This document shows positions 7,920 to 61,004 of a stretch of 64,000 nucleotides of DNA, piece by piece (positions within the stretch are counted from its first letter, which is position 1; every line of letters starts with the position of its first letter). The DNA is from Naegleria gruberi (lineage: Eukaryota): assembly GCA_000004985.1 (NCBI GenBank), contig GG738919.1. One strand, 5' to 3'. Below the pieces are notes generated by a model. That model made no database searches and was not told the origin of the DNA. It was given only the letters and a program-made list of their open reading frames with translations. Position numbers and translations under genes: made by a program.

Positions 7920-8000
7920 GCAGACTTGGCCGAGTGGTTAAGGCGACAGACTTGAAATCTGTTGGGGAAACCTTCGTAGGTTCGAATCCTGCAGTCTGCG
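7920..8000 (+). tRNA. tRNA-Ser (anticodon TGA), class II with a long variable arm.
   Basis: Acceptor GCAGACT/AGTCTGC is perfect. D-loop GGCCGAGTGGTTAAGGC, anticodon loop CTTGAAA, T-arm GTAGGTTCGAATCCTGC. A T-run follows. Confidence 0.85.
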
Positions 8001-12279: not shown

Positions 12280-12432
12280 GGTCGTTGGTCTAGAGGAATG
12301 CAATTTTAGAAAAGGTAAAATGATTCTCCCATGCCGGGAATTGAACCCGGACCTCCTGGGTGAAAGCCAGGTATCCTAGCCATTGGACTACACGGGAATC
12401 TTATTCATAATGAAAATATTCCCTTAATGAAT
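12280..12432 (-). repeat. tRNA-Glu repeat unit including conserved flanks (about 35 nt upstream, about 25 nt downstream), copy 1.
   Basis: Upstream flank ..GGAATATTTTCATTATGAATAAGAT and downstream flank GAGAATCATTTTACCTTTTCTAA are shared with the other two copies. Confidence 0.7.
12326..12397 (-). tRNA. tRNA-Glu (anticodon TTC), copy 1 of 3.
   Basis: Reverse complement is TCCCGTGTAGTCCAATGGCTAGGATACCTGGCTTTCACCCAGGAGGTCCGGGTTCAATTCCCGGCATGGGAG, identical to the copies at 15889 and 32740. Confidence 0.9.
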
Positions 12433-15854: not shown

Positions 15855-15985
15855 TTCATGGAAGGAATATTTTCATAATGAACAAGATTCCCGTGTAGTC
15901 CAATGGCTAGGATACCTGGCTTTCACCCAGGAGGTCCGGGTTCAATTCCCGGCATGGGAGAATCATTTTTACCTTTTCCAACTAA
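15855..15985 (+). repeat. tRNA-Glu repeat unit with conserved flanks, copy 2. Inverted relative to copy 1, so the pair brackets the kinase gene.
   Basis: GGAATATTTTCATAATGAACAAGAT upstream, GAGAATCATTTTTACCTTTTCCAA downstream. Confidence 0.7.
15889..15960 (+). tRNA. tRNA-Glu (TTC), copy 2.
   Basis: Identical 72-nt tRNA. Acceptor TCCCGTG/CATGGGA with a G-T wobble, anticodon loop CTTTCAC. Downstream flank has a TTTTT run. Confidence 0.9.
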
Positions 15986-16157: not shown

Positions 16158-17417
16158 ATGCTTCCAAAATCCAAGTACAGTCCCAACAATTTTCGAAAAT
16201 ATCAAACCACACCCAAGAAACGTAAAACTTCATCCGATTCCAATCTGGCAAATGAAATTGTCGATTTAACTCTCGATGAAAATCATATCATTTCCATTGA
16301 TGATGATGAGGAGGAGCAAATTCATCACTCCGAGAGAGTAAAATGTATTTTAATTGATCATCATCATAACGAGTTTAATGATGAAGAAGAATTTGAACTG
16401 ATGAGTTTATTGATTGGTAAATTGAGAGGAAAGTTTATTCGGTCAGTTTCTCTGGAATTTGATTCGTGCTATCAGTTGAGTGTTAAAGCAATGAAGAAAC
16501 CATTTGATGTAAAGATTTCGTATAATCACAAATTGGTTGTTGTCTCTGATTATAATGCAAATTCATTGTTTCTTTTTGATTTGATAACAAAGAGATATTT
16601 GACGAAACTATATATTAAGAATCCACATTATATTGCCATAGAATCAAATGTGGATTATCGTGAAGGAACTGAAAATGATGCAATTATTGTAACAAGTGCT
16701 AGTAACCATGTTTACAAAATTGACATTAAATTGAGTGTGAAAAATGGAAAGAGTTCAGAAATTTGGAAAGTTGGTGGAACGAAACATTTCAATTCCCCAT
16801 GTGGAGTAGTTGTCTATCATAACAAGGCAATGGATAGAAGAGAATCCCATGAAAATTCATATTTCAGATTAAATCAACAAGAAAGAGATGAAAATCTTGT
16901 AATGGTTTGTGATTTTAATAATAATAGAATTCAAGTGTTGGGTTCAAAGTATGGAAATTTGATTTCTTCAATTACATTGATTCCTGGAATTGGATTACAA
17001 ACTCCGTGGATGATTGATGTGAATTCGTATGGAGATTTGGTTCTTTCTGAATTTTCGAATAGAGTTCAATTGATTAGATATGTTTCGAATGTGTACGATT
17101 ATATGGATATTGCAGAAAGGGAAGAGATGGATTCAGACGGATGGGTTTCTCTTCATCAATTCTCATCTGAATCAAATTCAAGAAATGTCAAGACCAAATG
17201 TTGTGGAATTGTAGTTGACAAGACCACTCAGAATGTAATAATATGTGATAGAGATTCGAATATCATTAGAATATTCAATGTGAATGGAATATTTATCAAG
17301 GAAGTGAGAGGAGTCATTAATAATCCGAGAGGAATCTGCATTGATGAAAGAAGTGGAGAATTACTCATTGTGGATTCGGAAAGAAAATGTGTTAAGGTAT
17401 TTGGACATGTTAATTGA
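16158..17417 (+). CDS. NHL-repeat (beta-propeller) protein with an acidic N-terminal region. TGA stop.
   Basis: NHL-like repeats (NNNRIQVLG, NIIRIFNVNGIFIKEV, RGICIDERSGELLIVDSERKCVKVF). ATG at 16158. Confidence 0.6.
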   Translation: MLPKSKYSPNNFRKYQTTPKKRKTSSDSNLANEIVDLTLDENHIISIDDDEEEQIHHSERVKCILIDHHHNEFNDEEEFELMSLLIGKLRGKFIRSVSLEFDSCYQLSVKAMKKPFDVKISYNHKLVVVSDYNANSLFLFDLITKRYLTKLYIKNPHYIAIESNVDYREGTENDAIIVTSASNHVYKIDIKLSVKNGKSSEIWKVGGTKHFNSPCGVVVYHNKAMDRRESHENSYFRLNQQERDENLVMVCDFNNNRIQVLGSKYGNLISSITLIPGIGLQTPWMIDVNSYGDLVLSEFSNRVQLIRYVSNVYDYMDIAEREEMDSDGWVSLHQFSSESNSRNVKTKCCGIVVDKTTQNVIICDRDSNIIRIFNVNGIFIKEVRGVINNPRGICIDERSGELLIVDSERKCVKVFGHVN

Positions 17418-32705: not shown

Positions 32706-32836
32706 TTTATGAAAGGAATATTTTCATGATGAATAAGATTCCCGTGTAGTCCAATGGCTAGGATACCTGGCTTTCACCCAGGAGGTCCGGGTTCAATTCC
32801 CGGCATGGGAGAATCATTTTACCTTTTCTAAAAATA
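32706..32836 (+). repeat. tRNA-Glu repeat unit with conserved flanks, copy 3.
   Basis: Same flank conservation as copies 1 and 2. Confidence 0.7.
32740..32811 (+). tRNA. tRNA-Glu (TTC), copy 3.
   Basis: Identical 72-nt sequence with the same conserved flanks (GGAATATTTTCATGATGAATAAGAT / GAGAATCATTTTACCTTTTCTAA). Confidence 0.9.
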
Positions 32837-33213: not shown

Positions 33214-33287
33214 GCCGTCATAGCTCAGTTGGATAGAGCACAGGACTTCTAATCCTGGGGTCGTGGGTTCGAGCCCCATTGTCGGTA
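33214..33287 (+). tRNA. tRNA-Arg (anticodon TCT).
   Basis: GCCGTCATAGCTCAGTTGGATAGAGCACAGGACTTCTAATCCTGGGGTCGTGGGTTCGAGCCCCATTGTCGGTA. Anticodon loop CTTCTAA, T-arm GTGGGTTCGAGCCCCAT. One T-T mismatch and one G-T in the acceptor stem. A T-run terminator follows. Confidence 0.7.
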
Positions 33288-37709: not shown

Positions 37710-38258
37710 TTTTTATCTTCTTCAAATTTTTAATAATAAATTAATAATTTTGAATAAATTTTATTGAATCATTTCTTCTAAAGCCTTTCTAGCTTGCTTT
37801 CTGGGAATATTCATCAACTCTGAAAAGAACAAATTGTAGGGTTGGATGTGATAAGAATAGAGTGTAAGCTTGTTTCTATATTTTGCTTTAAATCAATAAT
37901 GAAATTGAATTATTATTTGTTTTTGGATTGTATTGATGAATAAAGCGATCAAAGAAGGCAAACCTACCAGTAGCAAGACGTCATTTAGATTATCGGTACT
38001 ACCTTCCGTAATTCATCACAGCAGCTGGATTGTCATCACGAATAAACTATTATAAGAACATCTTCATAAGCTGGCTGTTGAAACCCATGATGATGTCATT
38101 GCGATTTTACCCTTAAATTTTGTTAGTTGCAAATTTTTCAATTTTTAAATTATTTAAAAAAAACAACAACACATCATCCACAAACTTTACTTGTTGGTAG
38201 TATTATCGGAGTTGTGATTTATTAAACCTGAACAGAAAAAAACTTGTACAAATAGAAG

Positions 38259-46667: not shown

Positions 46668-47897
46668 ATGTTCTCACATTCAAACGATGTTGTCGATCGG
46701 CTAAATCCTGAAGAGCAATTAGCCTTGGTCACCTACCTCATCAATACAAAATTCAATTATGAGCAAAAGAAACACCTCCGACAATTATTGAATGCCTACA
46801 CTCTCTTGGCTGAATCAGATGTTATCTATGAGGTGTTTTCCTTCATTGATTTTAAAGAATTGATCAATTTGAGATTGTGTAGCCGAAAATTCAATCAATT
46901 CATCATGAGTGATGATTATTGGAGTCGAGTGTTTAATAGATATTTTAGCAATCAAGTGGCTCCTCAATCAGGAGGAATATTTAACAGATTTATTGAAGGT
47001 TAGTATTCGTAATATTTCACAACATGAAAGATTACATAAATATTTAAAGAATTGAAGAAATCACTCAGATTCAGGTTGGAACCTCTTCATGGACAGTACA
47101 TGTGGAACAAAACTTGGACCTTCCCAGATGATAATCCTTTGAAAATTGTCACATTCCAAGCAAAAGCTCAAAATGATATTCACATTAGTTTGGCAACTTC
47201 TCCACTCGTTACTAGTCCAATGTATGAGATTGTGATTGGTGGTTGGGGAAATGGTCAAAGTGTTATTAGAAGAGAAGCTCAGGGAGGAGCTTGGGCAAGT
47301 ATTGGACATCATCCCTGTAATCCTGATCAATTTTTGGATTATTGGGTCTGTCTCAACTCTGATTCTGGATGCATTTCTTGTGGAGCTGGTAAAACAGTTG
47401 GAGAACAACAATTTATGATTTTATCAGATAGTAATGTCTTGAATGTCAAGTGTGTTGGATTTACCACTTGGGATAAGCCTATTGAATACAGAAATGTGAA
47501 AACTAACTCAATTACACCATCAAGTTATGAATTTTACCTGCAATTTGGAAGTCTATTATGGCTACCAATGGTAGTCAATTCTGATGTCTTGGTTTTCAAC
47601 GTGAAACAGGGACGACACAATCTCACAATTCAATTCTCATCATTGTACAGTACCACTGAGATTTCATTTCCTACAAAATCAAAACAGAAGAAAGGAAATT
47701 GGATCAGATATTATCTTGTCTGTAGTGGAAATAGAGTTGCGAGTTATGTTGGAGAAGATGATGATAAATCAATTCCAAAACTTTATGAAACTAAACAAAT
47801 TCCAAACAATTGTTCTCAATTTGGGTTCAATTGTGATGTGGTCAATTTTAATAGAATATCATTGGAAGATTTCGGAAAACAACTCAATAAAAAGTAA
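46668..47897 (+). CDS. F-box protein, join(46668..46998,47050..47897) with a 51-nt intron.
   Basis: F-box VIYEVFSFIDFKELINLRLCSRKFNQFIMSDDYWSRVF. ..GAAG|GTTAGT donor and TTTAAAG| acceptor keep the frame into ORF 47052..47897 (whose M is a TTG). Confidence 0.6.
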
Positions 47898-48275
47898 GAT
47901 TCGCAGGTTGACCATATTATTACTGTAGTCATTGTATAAAAAACATAGTTCAAAGATAACAATAGCATCATTTACAATAGGAACTGTCACGCTATTAAGT
48001 TCTTTACCAACCAAACTTCCACATCCACGTATTGAGTGTTTCTATCTCTCCTATCGAACAACCATTCAAATAACAATTATTCTCACCATAAAAGTCAATC
48101 ACGATGAAATCATTAAATAACATAGCAAAAAAATAGCACAACTTGTCCCTTCATTTTCCCTCCAAAAATAATAAGCGCTCCGAGTAGTATTTTGAGCGTT
48201 TTTGGATCGTTATTGATCATCATAAGATCTTTGAAAAAACAATTAAACAAGGAAGATCAGAGTGTGTGAGAGAAA

Positions 48276-49280
48276 ATGGGTATGTTCCACAGTACGAGTG
48301 GAAAGTGGGGTTATAATCTGCACCAGAAGAAAACTTCCTATGAGTTGAGCAAGGAAGTGGCCATTCAATTGTTGAAGGAAGAACAACGTCTTCGGAGATT
48401 GTCCTCTACTCAACAGTCATACACGGAAGCTGATACGAATTTTAGAATGCTCGAGAATATTACCTATGATTTGCAAGAGAAGGCTTTGCAGAATGTATTG
48501 GGCATTGATCATTCGGATCCAATGTGGCATGAAGCATTGATTGCCTTTAGAAATTTGAGAGCAATTTATCAAAATGATCCTGATGTGAATCAATTAACAG
48601 ATTATTTCAAGTATGACATGTCTAGAGATTTCTTTGTTCAAAAGGTTAATTTGGAAACTATCAAGATTGTAGACTTGCTTGGTTATTATGATTTTGAGAA
48701 GGAGATTAATAATTTTGATCAAATGCCTAGCTCTGAAGAATTAGTTGCAAATAATACGAAAACATTGGCTCAATTTTTAACAGAAAGAAATACCAATAAC
48801 TTACCAGTTGCAATTATTGGAAGCTCATACTCCTGACCACCGTTTAGACAACACCAGCAATATCTCTTTGAAAGTATCTTCCAAGAATTCAAAGAGAAGG
48901 TGTTTGTCATTACCATTTATATTAAGGAAGCCCACGCTTGTGACCAATGGAAATTAGGAAACAGAATTAATATCAAACAACATCAAACAAGTGAAGATAG
49001 AGTAGATGCCACTAGATTAATGATGAAGGAAATGAATTTCAGAATTCCAACCATTGTCGATTCTATTGAGAATGGTTATGAGGAAGCTTTTGCAGTTTGG
49101 CCTGAAAAGTTTGTCATTATGAACAATAATGGAATAGTCGAGTATCAATCCAAACCAGAAACATATGGACATTCTCCAACAAAATTCCGTGAATTGATTG
49201 AACTTTATTTGAGTCGTACTAATCCTCCTTCTGATAAGGCTAGTACAACTACTCCTTCTGATCTTGGTCAAGTTTTGTAA
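48276..49280 (+). CDS. Iodothyronine-deiodinase-like selenoprotein (thioredoxin fold), 334 aa. The in-frame TGA at 48834-48836 is a selenocysteine codon.
   Basis: ORFs 48276..48836 and 48900..49280 share one frame and are separated only by the TGA. ..PVAIIGSSYS-U-PPF.. then ..VFVITIYIKEAHACDQW.. matches the deiodinase active site (NFGSCT-U-PPF ... YIEEAHxxDGW). Confidence 0.7.
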
Positions 49281-49288
49281 CTTGCATG

Positions 49289-49364
49289 CTTGTTAGAGTG
49301 TGTGACATTGACTCAAACAAATCACACGAATGTGAATCCAAGTCAATTGAAATTCTCTTACAAC
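49289..49364 (+). promoter_or_regulatory. Candidate type-II SECIS element in the 3'UTR of the deiodinase-like gene.
   Basis: Helix I CTTGTTAGAG / CTCTTACAA. Quartet (G)UGAC opposite UGAA. Helix II ATTGACT / AGTCAAT. Unpaired AAA at 49315-17. Helix III TCACA-cgaa-TGTGA. Non-canonical G instead of A before the UGA. Confidence 0.4.
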
Positions 49365-49481
49365 ATCCATTTACTAACCTTGTGTCAAGAAATAAATGTA
49401 CATTTGATAATATTTATTTAACATTGAGGATTATTTACATTATGTATTTTGTTTATACTACTAGAATAAAGATTTCAATCT

Positions 49482-49727
49482 TTAATTTTGAGATTTGGAA
49501 TCCTTATCTGGTTTTCTATATTGTTGTTCGAAAGATTTAATCTTATTCCACACTTGCTCAGTTGACCATTTATTTCCTTCTTCCTTTTCTTCACTTGATT
49601 TATTCAATTCCTCTTCTTTATGATTTGTTGAACAAGATGAGGGTTTCACATCTTCTACAAATTTCTCAACATCATACTTGTGGTAAATGTACATTCCAGA
49701 TGCAACTCCTGCCATAAAACTGAACAT
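49482..49727 (-). CDS. Small (81 aa) protein with an N-terminal hydrophobic segment, hypothetical.
   Basis: ATG at 49727. MFSFMAGVASGMYIYHKY then a charged tail. The ORF track starts at an upstream TTG. Confidence 0.35.
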   Translation of the reverse strand: MFSFMAGVASGMYIYHKYDVEKFVEDVKPSSCSTNHKEEELNKSSEEKEEGNKWSTEQVWNKIKSFEQQYRKPDKDSKSQN

Positions 49728-50512
49728 TTTCAATATGATGTTTTGTTGTTGTTATTAAATTTAACTTGTATTTGTTTTTTTTTGTTGAGATTATTGGAAT
49801 ATTCAAGTTTACTCTATTTATAGTCAACTTTGTAAAATTGATTGAATAAAAAGAAATATTGTCAAGTTGATGATTCAAATCAAAATGGTTGTTGTTTGTT
49901 TGTCTGTTCACTAGTACATGTAGTTGATTGAATAATTTTAGGAACATGTGTTTTGATTAAATGTTTTTTTGATTATAGCATTTAACCATTTTCAAATAAT
50001 ATATATTGTTGGATTTTTGCAACTTTGAAGAAAGATTGCAAATATTTAACCAATGAGAAACAGTACATGAGCAGGACACTTGACAATTATCATGAATTTA
50101 AGTTATGTTTAAATGATTGTAAAATTTCAGAATTATTCATTCAATTAGGGTTTAATATGTTTGTTTTAGAATTGTGCATGATGTGAACTCATGTCTCCCA
50201 ATAAACACCTCTGAAAGTTTATTCTAGTAAGTAAACATGAATTTGGAAGCAACAAAATGGTTTCGTATACTTTTTATTCCGCCACTTTTTTGTCATTTCA
50301 ATGATAATGAAAGTAAACTGCACATTGACAAAGATTTGGTACATTAATGTATGGTAATTTCGAGTTTCCATAAATGTATTTTTCAAAACCGAAAGTTGAT
50401 TGGAGAGATAATATTGAAACCTAACAAAATACAAAACTAGCAATTTTTAAGAACGCAGTCATCGTATTGAGATACGTAGTAGGACTAAAAAGATTAGAAA
50501 AAACATCTCAAC

Positions 50513-51238: not shown

Positions 51239-51478
51239 TTAATCTTTCTTCTTCATATAGGAATTATTAAACAAGGTCAAATGACTCTGATAAATACGAA
51301 ATCCAAGTTTATCTACAAACTTGTTCAAAACCTTCTTGTAATCATCGTGGGATTTAATGCAAAAATGGAAAGAATTAGTTACAAGTGAGAGAAAGTAGAA
51401 ACAATTCAAATCAGTTGTGTGATCCAAAGTGGAGAGTCTTTCCAATACTTGTTTCAACATTTCGTCCAAGAATTTCAT
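51239..51478 (-). CDS. 79-aa ORF directly abutting the upstream gene in the -1 frame. Either a separate small gene or a frameshifted C-terminal extension.
   Basis: MKFLDEMLKQVLERLSTLDHTTDLNCFYFLSLV.. is protein-like. There is no GT in the junction, so an intron is excluded. Confidence 0.3.
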   Translation of the reverse strand: MKFLDEMLKQVLERLSTLDHTTDLNCFYFLSLVTNSFHFCIKSHDDYKKVLNKFVDKLGFRIYQSHLTLFNNSYMKKKD

Positions 51479-53289
51479 ATCTTCTTTTGGGTAAATTCCA
51501 TCTCGATTTGAATTTGTAAAATTCGTTCAGTTGTAATGGAAGATTCCAAATCTAGACTGTTTCGAATAATGAGCAATACAATCTTACTAACCACTGAATA
51601 GATTTGAGTATTGAACCCATAAGTTAAACTGGAAATTGTCTTGAAAAAGAAAAATGGAAAGTAATGACTGGCAGTTTCGTTCCAATTAGTTGAGAAGGAA
51701 GAAACTTTTTCCTCAAATTTGAAATCTTGCAAAAAGCTCACAACCAATTCATTCTCCATTTCTGAATCGATTAATGAAAATAAAAAGGAAATTTGTTCAA
51801 TTTCAATTTGATAATAATTTTCAGGTTGACCAAACAATTTTTCTCCTCCACGACCACTTCCAGATTCCAATCTTTCAAAATTATCATTCGGCTCCACATA
51901 GACACTATTAAATTCAATCTTCTTATCACAATTCCAAAAGTGATTTTCATATTGATTGTCAGCTCTTACAGAGCTAGAGCAGAGTAAATGATGGAGAGCG
52001 AATTGACAAGCAAACATGAGAAATTGTTTGTCTTTTTGGAGGTTGACTGGTTGAGATTTCAACTTTTTAAAACCGAGATTGAATAAAATTTCACAATATT
52101 TTCTCCACTTGTTGAGTTTGATGTCGATTTGGATTTCTTCTGGAAGAGTTGACTTGGATTTTGATTCGTCTGGCTTATTTTCTTGTTGGAATTTTGAGTT
52201 GGATTGATAATTGTAAGATAATTCAGCAATGTTTTCAAATGGAACAGTCTTATTGTCATGAGTTACAATAGTTGTTGGATTAGTTTCACTTTCAGAAATA
52301 TTGGAAACTATTGAACTGCCACAAGTACAACTACTCGAACAACTAATGCAACTTCCTGACCTTCCAGAAATAGTTTCACTATTGGCTAACCCACCACTAT
52401 TTACAGAACTTTCGTCTGAAATCTCATAATTGTTAGTTCTAAATCTAACAATACTTTGCAACATTTCAAAGCACTGTTGTGCATCATATTCATCTTCCAT
52501 TAGAAACAACTCAACTAAAATGGCCTCAATCTTATCAACGGCTACACCCAATTCATCCAACTTTCCAATATCACATGGTAAGAATCTCAAGAATTCCCTC
52601 TTAAATCCATTCTTAAATTCAATGAATTCTCGATCATGGAGAGATCTCACAATTTCTTCTTTCTCTTCTTCTTTTTTCTCTTCAATCTTGCCACCATTTG
52701 CTTCATAATCTTTAATTTCTCGATTCAATTTCATGCCTAATTGCCTCTCCTCTTCACATCTCTTTGCATCTTTTCCATGTTCTTCAATTTCTTTTCTTCT
52801 CTTTTTTAAGTTTTCTTCAAAACTCAGTGTTAGTGGTATGTTTGTGGTTGTGGATTTTGATTTTGAGACAAACATTGAAACATCTAAATTAAATAAATCT
52901 TCATCATCATCTTCTGTTGGGATTGGATTCAGAGTGGAAGAGGTAGGAATAGGAATCATTGGAATGAGTGCGCCATTTGATTGTAGTGCAAATGTTGATA
53001 AAGATGGATCAGAATTGGAGCTGTCAATTTGTTCATTTGCTTGTTCTTCATCTGTTGTGTTAAGAGGTACAGAAGAAATTGGAGCAGATGAAGATATAGA
53101 AGGGACATCAGCAGATGAGGATTGTTCTGTTGATGATGAACAAGATTGGTAAATTAATTGATCAATCTTTGCATCATGTTCGGAGGTGGAAATTTCCTTG
53201 ATTTTCTTGACTGAATTTTCCTCTTCACTTGCCAAAGTGCTTTCCTTTCTCTTCTTGCCAGTATCTTCGATCGAATGAATAACAGTCAT
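51475..53289 (-). CDS. Hypothetical 604-aa protein with a charged coiled-coil segment and a Ser/Cys-rich region.
   Basis: ATG at 53289, long ORF with no recognisable domain. Followed immediately by ORF 51239..51478, whose start codon overlaps the stop (ATATGA). Confidence 0.5.
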   Translation of the reverse strand: MTVIHSIEDTGKKRKESTLASEEENSVKKIKEISTSEHDAKIDQLIYQSCSSSTEQSSSADVPSISSSAPISSVPLNTTDEEQANEQIDSSNSDPSLSTFALQSNGALIPMIPIPTSSTLNPIPTEDDDEDLFNLDVSMFVSKSKSTTTNIPLTLSFEENLKKRRKEIEEHGKDAKRCEEERQLGMKLNREIKDYEANGGKIEEKKEEEKEEIVRSLHDREFIEFKNGFKREFLRFLPCDIGKLDELGVAVDKIEAILVELFLMEDEYDAQQCFEMLQSIVRFRTNNYEISDESSVNSGGLANSETISGRSGSCISCSSSCTCGSSIVSNISESETNPTTIVTHDNKTVPFENIAELSYNYQSNSKFQQENKPDESKSKSTLPEEIQIDIKLNKWRKYCEILFNLGFKKLKSQPVNLQKDKQFLMFACQFALHHLLCSSSVRADNQYENHFWNCDKKIEFNSVYVEPNDNFERLESGSGRGGEKLFGQPENYYQIEIEQISFLFSLIDSEMENELVVSFLQDFKFEEKVSSFSTNWNETASHYFPFFFFKTISSLTYGFNTQIYSVVSKIVLLIIRNSLDLESSITTERILQIQIEMEFTQKKI

Positions 53290-54557: not shown

Positions 54558-54628
54558 GCGTCGATGGTATAGTGGTAGAATACGGCGTTGCCATCGCCGT
54601 GACCCGGGTTCAATTCCCGGTCGACGCA
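54558..54628 (+). tRNA. tRNA-Gly (anticodon GCC).
   Basis: GCGTCGATGGTATAGTGGTAGAATACGGCGTTGCCATCGCCGTGACCCGGGTTCAATTCCCGGTCGACGCA. Perfect acceptor stem GCGTCGA/TCGACGC, anticodon loop TTGCCAT. Confidence 0.9.
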
Positions 54629-59710: not shown

Positions 59711-61004
59711 TTATTGTTGCTTGCATTCTTGTTGGCCAGCAGCAGGTTGTTCACCACCTTCTCCTTGTGGTTGAGTAAGACCAGCTTGGATTTGAGTGAG
59801 CATGTCAGCAACTTCTGGGACAGTTGAGAAATCACCTTCCTTTGGCAAAGCAACGTTCAAGAAGTAATCAACAGCGTTTGGAATAATTCTTTCCTTGAGA
59901 ATGTCTCCGATTTCAGCATCAGCTTCCAACAATTCTTGCAAGATCATGTTTTCTTCATTTTCTTCCTTTTGAATTTCTTCATCGAGATTCTTGAAGAAGT
60001 TGAAGAAAGAGTCCTTTGGTTCCTTAACTTGAATAGTTCTGGTTCTGTTTCCAGACTTGTGCTTTTGCTTCTTGGTGGTAACCTTGACAGTCAAATCCTT
60101 ACCTTCAGCCCAGGTAATTTCAGTACCTTCAGAAGTGGCAATATCTTCACTATCGGCTTCTTCGTAATAGTATGACTTGACGAGTTGAGTGTTGGTGAAG
60201 AATGGATTTTCATTGAATTGGAAGATAATTCTGAAACCTGGATTATGCTTGTAATCAATTTCTTCTTCTTCTTCTTCTTCCTTCTTTTCAGCAGATTCTT
60301 CCTTTGGCTTGGCTGGGAATTCTTCCATGACAACATTCTTCAAGAACTTCAAAGCTTCCAAATCATCTTCTTGGATCAATTCAGCCTTGATTTCAGAGTG
60401 GAGCAAAACCTTGTACCAGAAATCTGGAACACCCTTCAAATCTTCAGTCTTTTCAGTGGTAACTTCGGACAAAGCAACAGTAGACAATTCTTCAGAGGTA
60501 GCTTCAACTTCACCAGTAACAATTTCGTTTCTTCTAATAATAACTGGAGCATAGAGAGCAGCATACTTTTCTCTGAGCTTCAAGTATTCTTCTTCGAATT
60601 GCTTTTCCAAATCAGAGTACTTTTGTTGGAGGTTCTTCAAAACACCAATAACCTTTTGAGTCTTGGCTGGATATTCAGCAAGTTGCTTCTTTTCAATCTT
60701 TTCGAGTTCTTCTGGGGTAGCCTTTCTCATGAGCATTGGGTGCTATTATTATTGTTAGATTAATTGTTGTTGTCAATAGTTATAAAGTACATCAGCAGAG
60801 AGGGAATGTTCAATAATATCAAGTTGTTTCCACATCATCGTCGGTTAAAATTATTATTATTAATAAATTTCATAGATTAACTTCCTCAACATTCTAACCA
60901 GCAAAACTACTTACACCATACATTTCTTCTTCGATATCTTCTTCTTCATCGAAGTCTTCTTCTTCAGCAGGAGCAAAGTTAAAGTTGAACTTTTGTGGAG
61001 GCAT
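59711..61004 (-). CDS. NAP1: Nucleosome assembly protein 1, join(59711..60742,60915..61004) with a 172-nt intron. C-terminal CKQQ CaaX box.
   Basis: Exon 1 MPPQKFNFNFAPAEEEDFDEEEDIEEEMYG|GTAAGT. Acceptor AATAATAG|CAC is in frame with ORF 59711..60736. NAP signatures VIGVLKNLQ..LE..F..EY..LREKY, DFWYKVL, PGFRIIFQFNENPFFTN. Ends ...ECKQQ. Confidence 0.8.

What the first reader, a model, noticed from the sequence alone, without database searches (positions are those of the whole stretch)
48276..49364. UGA-encoded selenocysteine in a deiodinase-like gene, with a candidate SECIS element just after the stop
Two ORF-track entries (48276..48836 and 48900..49280) share one frame and are separated by a single TGA. 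The flanking sequence ...AIIGSSYS-TGA-PPF... sits exactly at the catalytic Sec position of iodothyronine deiodinases (GSCT-U-PPF). Downstream it continues with the conserved YI(K/E)EAHxxDxW motif. TGA is otherwise used as a normal stop in this window (for example the genes ending at 17417 and 4290), so this is specific recoding. Nine nt after the TAA there is a hairpin with the hallmarks of a type-II SECIS. It has UGA/UGA tandem G-A quartet strands, a 7-bp helix II, an unpaired AAA and a mini helix III. It carries GUGA rather than the canonical AUGA.
Basis: partly seen in the sequence, partly recalled or inferred. Interest (0 to 1): 0.85.

Follow-up and report, generated by a model that had tools for sequence, protein, structure and literature searches.

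The report
Unannotated deiodinase-like selenoprotein gene in Naegleria
The in-frame TGA is very probably a real selenocysteine codon in a deiodinase-family gene of the amoeba Naegleria gruberi, served by a conserved SECIS hairpin just after the stop codon; genome annotations miss or split this gene, but it belongs to an already known kind.

Summary
The window is Naegleria gruberi NEG-M. Positions 48276-49280 (+) form one 334-codon reading frame with a single in-frame TGA (48834-48836, residue 187). That TGA lies at the catalytic selenocysteine position of iodothyronine deiodinases (Pfam T4_deiodinase 84.5 bits; mouse Dio3 structure 4TR3, E 3.6e-12).

The same TGA is present in all 11 relatives read at DNA level. 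These include N. lovaniensis, N. fowleri and two Willaertia magna paralogs. No cysteine form was found. Sequence downstream of the TGA evolves like coding sequence. TGA is otherwise a normal stop in this window.

The hairpin at 49288-49363 is a type II SECIS with a GUGA/UGAA core, an invariant AAA and a mini-stem. Across seven Naegleria-type species helix II stays 94.5% paired, and 5 of its 8 pairs change on both sides. Rfam's SECIS models do not detect it. They also miss the canonical AUGA SECIS of Willaertia, so that negative result is weak.

GUGA SECIS cores, deiodinase-like selenoproteins in protists and the Naegleria selenocysteine machinery are all published. This is therefore a new, unannotated member of a known kind.

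One further point may be undescribed: a conserved N-terminal domain of about 120 residues with an N-myristoylation motif, shared by dozens of uncultured eukaryote lineages.

The parts
48276..49280 (+). Complete intron-less coding sequence of a deiodinase-like selenoprotein: 334 residues with Sec at 187, then TAA at 49278-49280.
   Evidence: Searches show one frame. An upstream in-frame stop lies at 48267. The start MGMFHSTSGK is conserved in orthologs.
48276..48644 (+). N-terminal domain, residues 1-123. It begins with MGMFHS, which fits the N-myristoylation pattern, and contains the conserved LTDYFKYDMSR motif. There is no Pfam match and no transmembrane helix.
   Evidence: Pfam finds nothing. 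57 representative clusters share the domain (alignment A4).
48645..49205 (+). T4_deiodinase (thioredoxin-fold) catalytic domain, residues 124-310. It holds the motifs GSSYS-U-PPF, YIKEAHACDQW and KQH.
   Evidence: Pfam PF00837, E 8.8e-24. 4TR3, E 3.6e-12, and 9H48, E 2e-7.
48834..48836 (+). UGA codon read as selenocysteine (residue 187). It is followed by C (UGA-C).
   Evidence: The same column is TGA in 11 of 11 relatives, always followed by C.
49288..49363 (+). [quoted passage not shown]
   Evidence: Minimum-free-energy fold. Covariation counts. The covariance model R1 scores it at 88 bits.
49302..49306 (+). 5' strand of the SECIS core, GUGAC (G before the UGA-N quartet strand).
   Evidence: Invariant in 7 of 7 Naegleria-type sequences.
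49348..49351 (+). 3' strand of the SECIS core, UGAA (the K-G-A-W consensus).
   Evidence: U-G-A is invariant. The UGAN/KGAW consensus is from PMC3753652.
49307..49347 (+). Helix II (49307-49313 pairs with 49341-49347) enclosing the apical part: invariant AAA at 49319-49321 and mini-stem helix III (49322-49326 pairs with 49331-49335, loop CGAA).
   Evidence: Helix II is 94.5% paired, and 5 of its 8 pairs change on both sides. Helix III is invariant.
49391..49396 (+). First AATAAA after the SECIS, a candidate polyadenylation signal. A second lies at 49465-49470. This is inferred only.
   Evidence: The convergent DUF4535 gene on the minus strand ends at 49482.

Best explanation
Positions 48276-49280 encode one 334-residue selenoprotein of the iodothyronine-deiodinase (T4_deiodinase, thioredoxin-fold) family in Naegleria gruberi.

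Recoding. The UGA at 48834-48836 is decoded as selenocysteine, not as a stop. The mRNA carries a type II SECIS element at 49288-49363 in its 3'UTR. By analogy with all eukaryotic selenoprotein mRNAs, SBP2 binds the G.A/A.G kink-turn core. It recruits eEFSec carrying Sec-tRNA(Sec) to the ribosome paused at UGA-C.

Status of each claim:
- Shown here: the single frame, the family membership, the position of the UGA, its conservation, coding constraint beyond it, and a conserved, covarying SECIS-shaped hairpin.
- Taken from the literature: N. gruberi has the Sec machinery.
- Inferred: actual selenium insertion.

Enzyme. Sec187 sits in S-Y-S-U-P-P-F. The proton-relay residues shared by all vertebrate deiodinases are kept: Ser184, Ser186 (Thr in Dio3), Tyr215, Glu218, His220, Trp225 and His236. 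I therefore commit to a Sec-dependent reductive dehalogenase or closely related redox reaction on a small aromatic substrate. That substrate is probably not thyroid hormone.

Membrane attachment. The protein has no N-terminal membrane helix. It has instead a conserved N-terminal domain of about 120 residues beginning MGxxHS. I infer that this is N-myristoylated and tethers the enzyme to a membrane.

My confidence is about 0.9 for the recoding, about 0.5 for the chemistry and about 0.55 for the lipid anchor.
For: Organism. Six window ORFs are identical to N. gruberi NEG-M proteins.

Family. PF00837 scores 84.5 bits against a cutoff of 27. 4TR3 and 9H48 align across the Sec column and the EAH..D.W and QH motifs. 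The roles of those residues are described in PMC11592359.

Conservation of the TGA.
- Present at the same column in N. lovaniensis, N. fowleri, two W. magna paralogs and four metagenomic Naegleria-like lineages.
- Also present in two distant members with 41% and 67% GC.
- All 11 read TGA-C.

Coding constraint beyond the TGA. Against L010, differences by codon position 1/2/3 are 19/17/43 downstream and 40/21/69 upstream.

TGA as a normal stop.

SECIS.
- Minimum-free-energy folds of most orthologs give the same architecture.
- 84% of cells are paired, against 35-47% when the partner columns are slid.
- Helix II is 94.5% paired, and 5 of its 8 pairs change on both sides.
- GUGAC, AAA and UGA are invariant.
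- The core fits UGAN/KGAW (PMC3753652).
- GUGA_AA is a known working variant (PMC3473315).
- The SECIS of the distant member L015 scores 23.4 bits (E 0.012) with Rfam SECIS_1.

Sec machinery. It is reported in N. gruberi by da Silva 2013, cited in PMC4561486 and PMC8038987.

N-terminal domain and lipid motif.
Against: - No Rfam SECIS family matches the window element, even at E up to 10 on 90 nt.
- The fold's free-energy z-score is only -1.45.
- Helix II is short at 7 bp, and the nucleotide before UGA is G rather than A.
- No Sec-machinery gene and no tRNA-Sec lies in this window. The rest of the genome could not be searched here.
- No protein-level or selenium-labelling evidence exists.
- For the chemistry: the Arg that clamps the substrate in Dio3 (Arg275) matches Arg305 in N. 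gruberi but is not conserved among the orthologs. Cys168 of Dio3 is Tyr here. Thyroid hormones are not known in amoebae.
Confidence: 0.88

Rival explanations
1. The TGA is a true stop. On this reading the locus is a pseudogene, an assembly error, or two separate small genes, and only the 186-residue N-terminal product is made.
For: Gene callers split the locus this way in every genome and metagenome. Rfam finds no SECIS.
Against: - The same TGA is kept in 11 independent lineages and in dozens of truncated clusters.
- The downstream part has no conserved start codon of its own, yet it is under coding constraint in the same frame.
- The split falls in the middle of one thioredoxin-fold domain, at its catalytic residue.
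- A covarying SECIS follows the stop codon.
Confidence: 0.03
2. The UGA is read through or reassigned without selenium. Either it is decoded by a near-cognate tRNA as Trp, Cys or Arg, or the organism uses a variant genetic code.
For: - UGA-C is generally the leakiest termination context (my own knowledge, not tested here).
- Two metagenomic gene calls show W at this position (P0046 and P0119).
Against: - Those W residues are what a TGA=Trp translation table would print.
- TGA ends verified N. gruberi genes.
- The position is the catalytic Sec of the family.
- A SECIS is conserved, and the organism has the Sec machinery according to the literature.
Confidence: 0.04
3. Recoding is real, but the enzyme is not a dehalogenase. 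It acts instead as a peroxiredoxin-like or other thiol/selenol oxidoreductase, for example on peroxides or on an unrelated substrate.
For: - Deiodinases have a peroxiredoxin-like fold and mechanism (PMC11592359).
- Amoebae are not known to have thyroid hormones (PMC2375036).
- The Arg that clamps the substrate in Dio3 is not conserved among the orthologs.
Against: - The residues shared by all deiodinase isoforms are conserved: Ser, Ser/Thr, Tyr, Glu, His, Trp and His.
- The deiodinase-type loop between EAH and QH is present and has nearly the same length as in Dio3.
Confidence: 0.4

Closest known systems
Vertebrate iodothyronine deiodinases Dio1-3 (structures 4TR3/4TR4 for Dio3, 9H48 for Dio2)
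   Same: Same Pfam family, PF00837. Sec lies at the same position before PPF. The conserved residues are kept: Ser, Ser/Thr, Tyr, Glu, His, Trp and His. Sec is specified by a type II SECIS in the 3'UTR.
   Different: - About 25-30% identity, estimated by eye from the HMMER alignment.
- No N-terminal transmembrane helix. A soluble conserved domain of about 120 residues with an MGxxxS motif takes its place.
- Cys168 of Dio3 is Tyr here, and the Arg275 equivalent is not conserved.
- The host has no known thyroid hormone.
Dictyostelium discoideum deiodinase-like selenoprotein (Lobanov et al. 2007, PMC2375036)
   Same: A Sec-containing deiodinase homolog in a free-living amoeboid protist. Its SECIS is type II with an unpaired AAA and a mini-stem.
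   Different: - It comes from a different supergroup, Amoebozoa rather than Heterolobosea.
- The Dictyostelium SECIS has a very long mini-stem. The paper's description of a conserved UGUA before the core is not the GUGA seen here.
GUGA_AA-type SECIS elements of green algae (Chlamydomonas, Ostreococcus) and sponge (PMC3473315)
   Same: G instead of A directly before the UGA of the core, with AA in the apical region.
   Different: In those organisms GUGA is common across many selenoprotein genes. Here only one gene family could be examined. The sister genus Willaertia uses AUGA for the orthologous gene.
Naegleria thioredoxin reductase selenoprotein (da Silva et al. 2013, as cited in PMC8038987)
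   Same: Same organism and the same recoding machinery. It is the only Naegleria selenoprotein discussed in the papers I could search.
   Different: An unrelated protein family, with Sec as the penultimate residue. Its SECIS could not be fetched for comparison.

Membership tests
Iodothyronine deiodinase family (Pfam PF00837 T4_deiodinase) | Match to the family HMM above the curated threshold | tested here: met
   84.5 bits against a cutoff of 27, E 8.8e-24, residues 124-310 on profile positions 53-235 of 237.
Iodothyronine deiodinase family (Pfam PF00837 T4_deiodinase) | Catalytic Sec (UGA) in the S-x-[ST]-U-P-P-F motif | tested here: met
   GSSYS-TGA-PPF aligns with GSCT-C-PPF of 4TR3 and 9H48. 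It is TGA in 11 of 11 relatives.
Iodothyronine deiodinase family (Pfam PF00837 T4_deiodinase) | Residues shared by all Dio isoforms: the proton relay Ser/Thr/Tyr/Glu/His/His, plus Trp of the loop | tested here: met
   Ser184, Ser186, Tyr215, Glu218, His220, Trp225 and His236 align with Dio3 Ser167, Thr169, Tyr197, Glu200, His202, Trp207 and His219. They are conserved in the orthologs. Their roles are taken from PMC11592359, with the Dio3 numbering partly from my own knowledge.
Iodothyronine deiodinase family (Pfam PF00837 T4_deiodinase) | N-terminal transmembrane anchor | tested here: not met
   The highest 19-residue hydropathy is 0.76, so there is no transmembrane segment. An MGMFHS myristoylation-type motif is present instead.
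Iodothyronine deiodinase family (Pfam PF00837 T4_deiodinase) | Substrate clamp Arg (Dio3 Arg275) and reductive deiodination of iodothyronines | tested here: inconclusive
   Arg305 aligns in N. gruberi, but the position varies among orthologs: R in 4 of 9, otherwise N, C, K or L. Enzyme activity cannot be tested with these tools.
Eukaryotic SECIS element, type II | Location in the 3'UTR, more than about 50-110 nt downstream of the UGA | tested here: met
   The core starts 465 nt after the UGA and 21 nt after the stop codon. The minimum spacing is from PMC3753652.
Eukaryotic SECIS element, type II | Kink-turn core UGAN / KGAW | tested here: met
   UGAC at 49303-49306 opposite UGAA at 49348-49351. 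It is invariant across 7 species.
Eukaryotic SECIS element, type II | A directly 5' of the core UGA (AUGA) | tested here: not met
   G in all 7 Naegleria-type sequences, and A in the Willaertia, L014 and L015 relatives. GUGA is a documented functional variant (PMC3473315).
Eukaryotic SECIS element, type II | Unpaired AA(A) in the apical bulge followed by a mini-stem | tested here: met
   AAA at 49319-49321 is invariant. The 5-bp helix III is invariant.
Eukaryotic SECIS element, type II | Helices I and II maintained by compensatory change | tested here: met
   Helix II is 94.5% paired, with both-side changes in 5 of 8 pairs. Helix I is 70% paired, with 6 of 10. Slid controls give 35-47%.
Eukaryotic SECIS element, type II | Score with a curated SECIS covariance model (Rfam RF00031 and related) | tested here: not met
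   No hit at E up to 10. The model also misses the Willaertia AUGA SECIS. It gives only 23.4 bits, against a threshold of 35, on the GC-rich relative L015. SECISearch3 was not available.
Eukaryotic SECIS element, type II | Binds SBP2 and directs Sec insertion; the organism has tRNA-Sec, eEFSec, SBP2, PSTK, SepSecS and SPS2 | not testable with these tools
   None of these genes is in the window. Their presence in N. gruberi rests on da Silva 2013, as cited in PMC4561486 and PMC8038987.

The most novel reading that the evidence does not exclude
The N. gruberi gene may be the first genome-anchored representative of an undescribed, apparently obligately Sec-containing subfamily of deiodinase-like enzymes.

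- The subfamily is defined by a conserved N-terminal domain of about 120 residues (MGMxHSTSGKxG ... LR.S ... LT.Y.R.D.SR) with an N-myristoylation signal. This domain would replace the transmembrane anchor of animal deiodinases.
- It is spread across many uncultured or marine microbial eukaryotes, with GC content from 33% to 67%.
- No Cys form was seen in more than 50 sequence clusters.
- Such enzymes would act on a non-thyroid halogenated or redox substrate at a membrane.
Probability: 0.4. Interest if true: 0.45.

Novelty: new member of a known kind. Interest (0 to 1): 0.35.

Why it matters
Annotation. The collection I searched holds no N. gruberi NCBI protein for this locus. In N. fowleri, N. 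lovaniensis and W. magna the gene is split into two 'hypothetical proteins', or has the Sec region spliced out of the model.

Selenoproteome. The only Naegleria selenoprotein discussed in the papers I could search is thioredoxin reductase. This gene adds a second one. It matters because the relative N. fowleri is a lethal pathogen for which selenoenzyme-targeting drugs such as auranofin are under discussion.

Method. It shows that Rfam's SECIS model is blind to AT-rich heterolobosean SECIS elements.

Biology. It offers a further protist setting in which to ask what deiodinase-family enzymes do in organisms without thyroid hormone.

None of this changes the known picture of Sec recoding.

Tried and rejected
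- Rfam on the whole window, on 501 nt and on 90 nt found no SECIS family. It found none in five ortholog loci either. Calibration showed that the model is insensitive here.
- A metagenome scan with the conserved SECIS pattern GTGACATN{6,12}CAAATCACACGNATGTGA returned 0 loci.
- The covariance model R1, built from the seven SECIS elements, found no second element of this kind in the window. The best other hit scored 15 bits, E 0.16.
- A second pair of long frames separated by a TGA, at 60173(+), was examined and rejected. It is the antisense shadow of a NAP gene at 59711-60736(-) and has no Pfam match of its own.
- Two other hits of my crude SECIS grammar, at 37848 and 62476, lie in a 5' intergenic region and antisense to a gene. 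They are at the level expected by chance.
There is therefore no 3-D model and no fold search.
- Three paper searches were run: Naegleria + selenoprotein + deiodinase (0 papers), Naegleria + selenoproteome and N. fowleri + selenoprotein. None of the listed papers deals with this gene.
- da Silva 2013 itself is not held.
- I considered comparing the SECIS with that of the Naegleria thioredoxin reductase gene. No query or genome access allowed it.

Full report
**What is in the sequence.** Positions 48276-49280 (+) translate as one frame of 334 codons with a single internal stop, TGA at 48834-48836. The frame ends in TAA at 49278-49280. An in-frame stop lies 9 nt before the ATG. With Cys written at the TGA, the protein matches Pfam T4_deiodinase at 84.5 bits against a cutoff of 27, over residues 124-310. 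It also matches the solved catalytic domains of mouse Dio3 (4TR3, E 3.6e-12) and Dio2 (9H48, E 2e-7). In those alignments the TGA column falls on the catalytic Sec position, which is Cys in the crystallised proteins: GSSYS-U-PPF against GSCT-C-PPF. Residues 215-225 are YIKEAHACDQW and residues 234-236 are KQH. These correspond to Tyr197, Glu200, His202, Trp207 and His219 of Dio3, the residues described as shared by all isoforms (PMC11592359).

**Organism and genetic code.** Six long ORFs of the window are identical, from first to last residue, to Naegleria gruberi NEG-M proteins such as XP_002670065, XP_002670075 and XP_002670119, on a 216,243-bp contig. TGA is an ordinary stop in this window.
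- The verified gene 51475-53289(-) ends in TGA.
- 12 of 43 open frames of at least 150 codons end in TGA.
- Only one other place in the window has two long same-frame segments separated by one stop, at 60173. That place is the antisense shadow of a NAP gene.

Neither half of the deiodinase-like gene has an N. gruberi NCBI record in the protein collection. The identical fragments P0001 and P0003 come only from a metagenome.

**Comparative evidence for recoding.** Homolog searches and contig look-ups gave the orthologous loci listed below.
- N. lovaniensis (L001).
- N. fowleri (L004, L005).
- Two Willaertia magna paralogs (L006, L007).
- Four Naegleria-like metagenomic lineages (L008/L009, L010, L011, L012/L013).

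In every one the gene is called as two pieces. Read in one frame, each has TGA at exactly this column: G-x-S-Y-S-TGA-P-P-F-R. Two distant relatives, with 41% and 67% GC, show the same (L014 and L015). All 11 sequences read TGA-C, and none has TGT or TGC.

The sequence after the TGA evolves as coding sequence in the same frame. Against L010, differences at codon positions 1/2/3 are 19/17/43 downstream and 40/21/69 upstream. The other comparisons show the same pattern. A pseudogene, two independent genes and an assembly error are therefore excluded for practical purposes.

**The SECIS element.**
- Helix I: 49290-49301 with 49352-49363.
- Core: GUGAC at 49302-49306 opposite UGAA at 49348-49351.
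- Helix II: 7 bp, 49307-49313 with 49341-49347.
- Bulge: ends in AAA at 49319-49321.
- Mini-stem: 5 bp, 49322-49326 with 49331-49335.

The core fits the published consensus UGAN/KGAW (PMC3753652). It lies 465 nt from the UGA.

The same element lies 21-69 nt after the stop codon in all seven Naegleria-type species. GUGAC, the AAA, the mini-stem and the 3' UGA are invariant. On that alignment 84% of pair cells are standard pairs, against 35-47% when the 3' partners are slid by 1-3 columns. Helix II is 94.5% paired, and 5 of its 8 pairs change on both sides. Helix I has 6 of 10 such pairs. Independent minimum-free-energy folds of most orthologs recover the architecture. Both Willaertia paralogs, L014 and L015 carry canonical AUGA elements with longer mini-stems.

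Rfam does not recognise the window element at any threshold I could set. It also misses the Willaertia AUGA element. It reaches only 23.4 bits (E 0.012, threshold 35) on the GC-rich L015 element. I therefore treat the negative as a limit of the model. GUGA_AA cores are documented in Chlamydomonas, Ostreococcus and a sponge (PMC3473315).

A crude SECIS grammar finds 3 candidates in both strands of the window, against about 1 in shuffles. One of them is this element, placed directly behind the only TGA-interrupted gene.

**How it most likely works.** The SECIS kink-turn is bound by SBP2, which delivers eEFSec with Sec-tRNA(Sec) to the UGA-C codon. This yields a 334-residue protein with Sec187. 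That step is inferred from the established eukaryotic mechanism and from the reported Sec machinery of N. gruberi: PSTK, SepSecS, SPS2, EFSec, SBP2 and tRNA-Sec. Those reports come from da Silva et al. 2013, which I recall from memory and which is cited in PMC4561486 and PMC8038987. The paper itself is not held. No part of that machinery is in this window. Its six tRNA genes are Glu x3, Ser, Arg and Gly.

The conserved deiodinase residues argue for deiodinase-type selenol chemistry. The substrate-clamp arginine of Dio3 is not conserved among the orthologs, and Cys168 of Dio3 is Tyr here. The natural substrate is therefore probably not an iodothyronine.

**The N-terminal domain.** Residues 1-123 have no Pfam match and no transmembrane segment; the highest 19-residue hydropathy is 0.76. 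They are nevertheless conserved.
- An exhaustive HMMER search with the N-terminal half found 57 clusters at 50% identity. A profile search found 54 proteins.
- Nearly all are 155-200 residues long and end in ...G-S-x-S/T, that is, they are cut at the Sec codon.
- Two full-length calls print W there, as a TGA=Trp translation table would.
- Almost all begin MGM(F/Y)HSTSGK, which fits the N-myristoylation pattern G-{EDRKHPFYW}-x(2)-[STAGCN]-{P} (the pattern is from my own knowledge).

I infer a lipid anchor in place of the transmembrane helix of animal deiodinases. Named sources are only Naegleria and Willaertia. The rest are metagenomes, MMETSP and EukProt.

**Comparison with what is known, and verdict.** All of the following are published:
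- a Sec-containing deiodinase homolog in a protist (Dictyostelium; PMC2375036);
- GUGA SECIS cores;
- Sec use by Naegleria.

N. gruberi was also among the genomes analysed in the Mariotti et al. 2015 study, so the gene may already sit in unpublished prediction tables. Paper searches combining Naegleria with selenoprotein and deiodinase found nothing, and the related searches listed no paper on this gene.

The finding is correct and well read, but it is a new, mis-annotated member of a known kind. The subfamily-level N-terminal domain is the only part that may be new. Interest 0.35.

Noticed in passing
window 48276-48644; alignment A4; loci L014 and L015: The first ~120 residues form a conserved domain with no Pfam match. 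It begins MGMxHSTSGK, an N-myristoylation-type motif. It is shared by more than 50 clusters, mostly from metagenomes and marine-protist transcriptomes. Nearly all are truncated exactly at the Sec codon, and no Cys form was seen.
   Followed up: partly
L006, L007 and protein P0045 (Willaertia magna KAL9645640): W. magna has at least three paralogs of this gene. Two are split at the TGA into adjacent 'hypothetical proteins'. In the third, the gene model skips the Sec region (the stretch around ...GGSYS-U-PPFRKH), apparently through an artificial intron.
   Followed up: partly
proteins P0046 and P0119 (Logan assemblies): Two full-length gene calls show Trp at the Sec position (GSYS-W-PPL and GSIT-W-PPF). 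The likely cause is that the contigs were translated with a TGA=Trp table.
   Followed up: no
window 48819-48848 and the orthologous positions: Synonymous sites around the Sec codon are unusually constant among the nine heterolobosean sequences: TCC TGA CCA CCG TTT AGA. The base after TGA is C in 11 of 11. This could reflect a local recoding context, which was not tested.
   Followed up: no
window 12326-12397 (-), 15889-15960 (+), 32740-32811 (+): Three tRNA-Glu(UUC) genes with identical Rfam scores lie within 20 kb. The window also has tRNA-Ser(UGA) at 7920-8000, tRNA-Arg(UCU) at 33214-33287 and tRNA-Gly(GCC) at 54558-54628. There is no tRNA-Sec.
   Followed up: no
window 59828-60760 (+) and 59711-60736 (-): A second pair of long same-frame open segments is separated by one TGA at 60173. 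It lies antisense to a nucleosome assembly protein gene (PF00956, 246 bits) and has no family match, so it is a shadow frame and not a second selenoprotein.
   Followed up: yes
window 46668-47897, compared with L001 3621-4622 and L004 462-1463: Gene order is not conserved. GAPDH lies upstream of the deiodinase-like gene in N. lovaniensis and N. fowleri. In N. gruberi the upstream genes are an F-box gene and a Methyltransf_FA-domain gene.
   Followed up: no
L002, L003 (metagenome ERR1078381, PRJEB11402): Contigs that encode both halves of this protein, identical to the N. gruberi window sequence, occur in a public 'metagenome' assembly. N. gruberi or a near-identical strain was therefore in that sample.
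   Followed up: no
window 49482-49733 (-): A convergent small gene (83 aa, DUF4535 match at 31.6 bits) ends about 120 nt from the SECIS. The two 3'UTRs must lie very close or overlap. AATAAA motifs are at 49391 and 49465.
   Followed up: no
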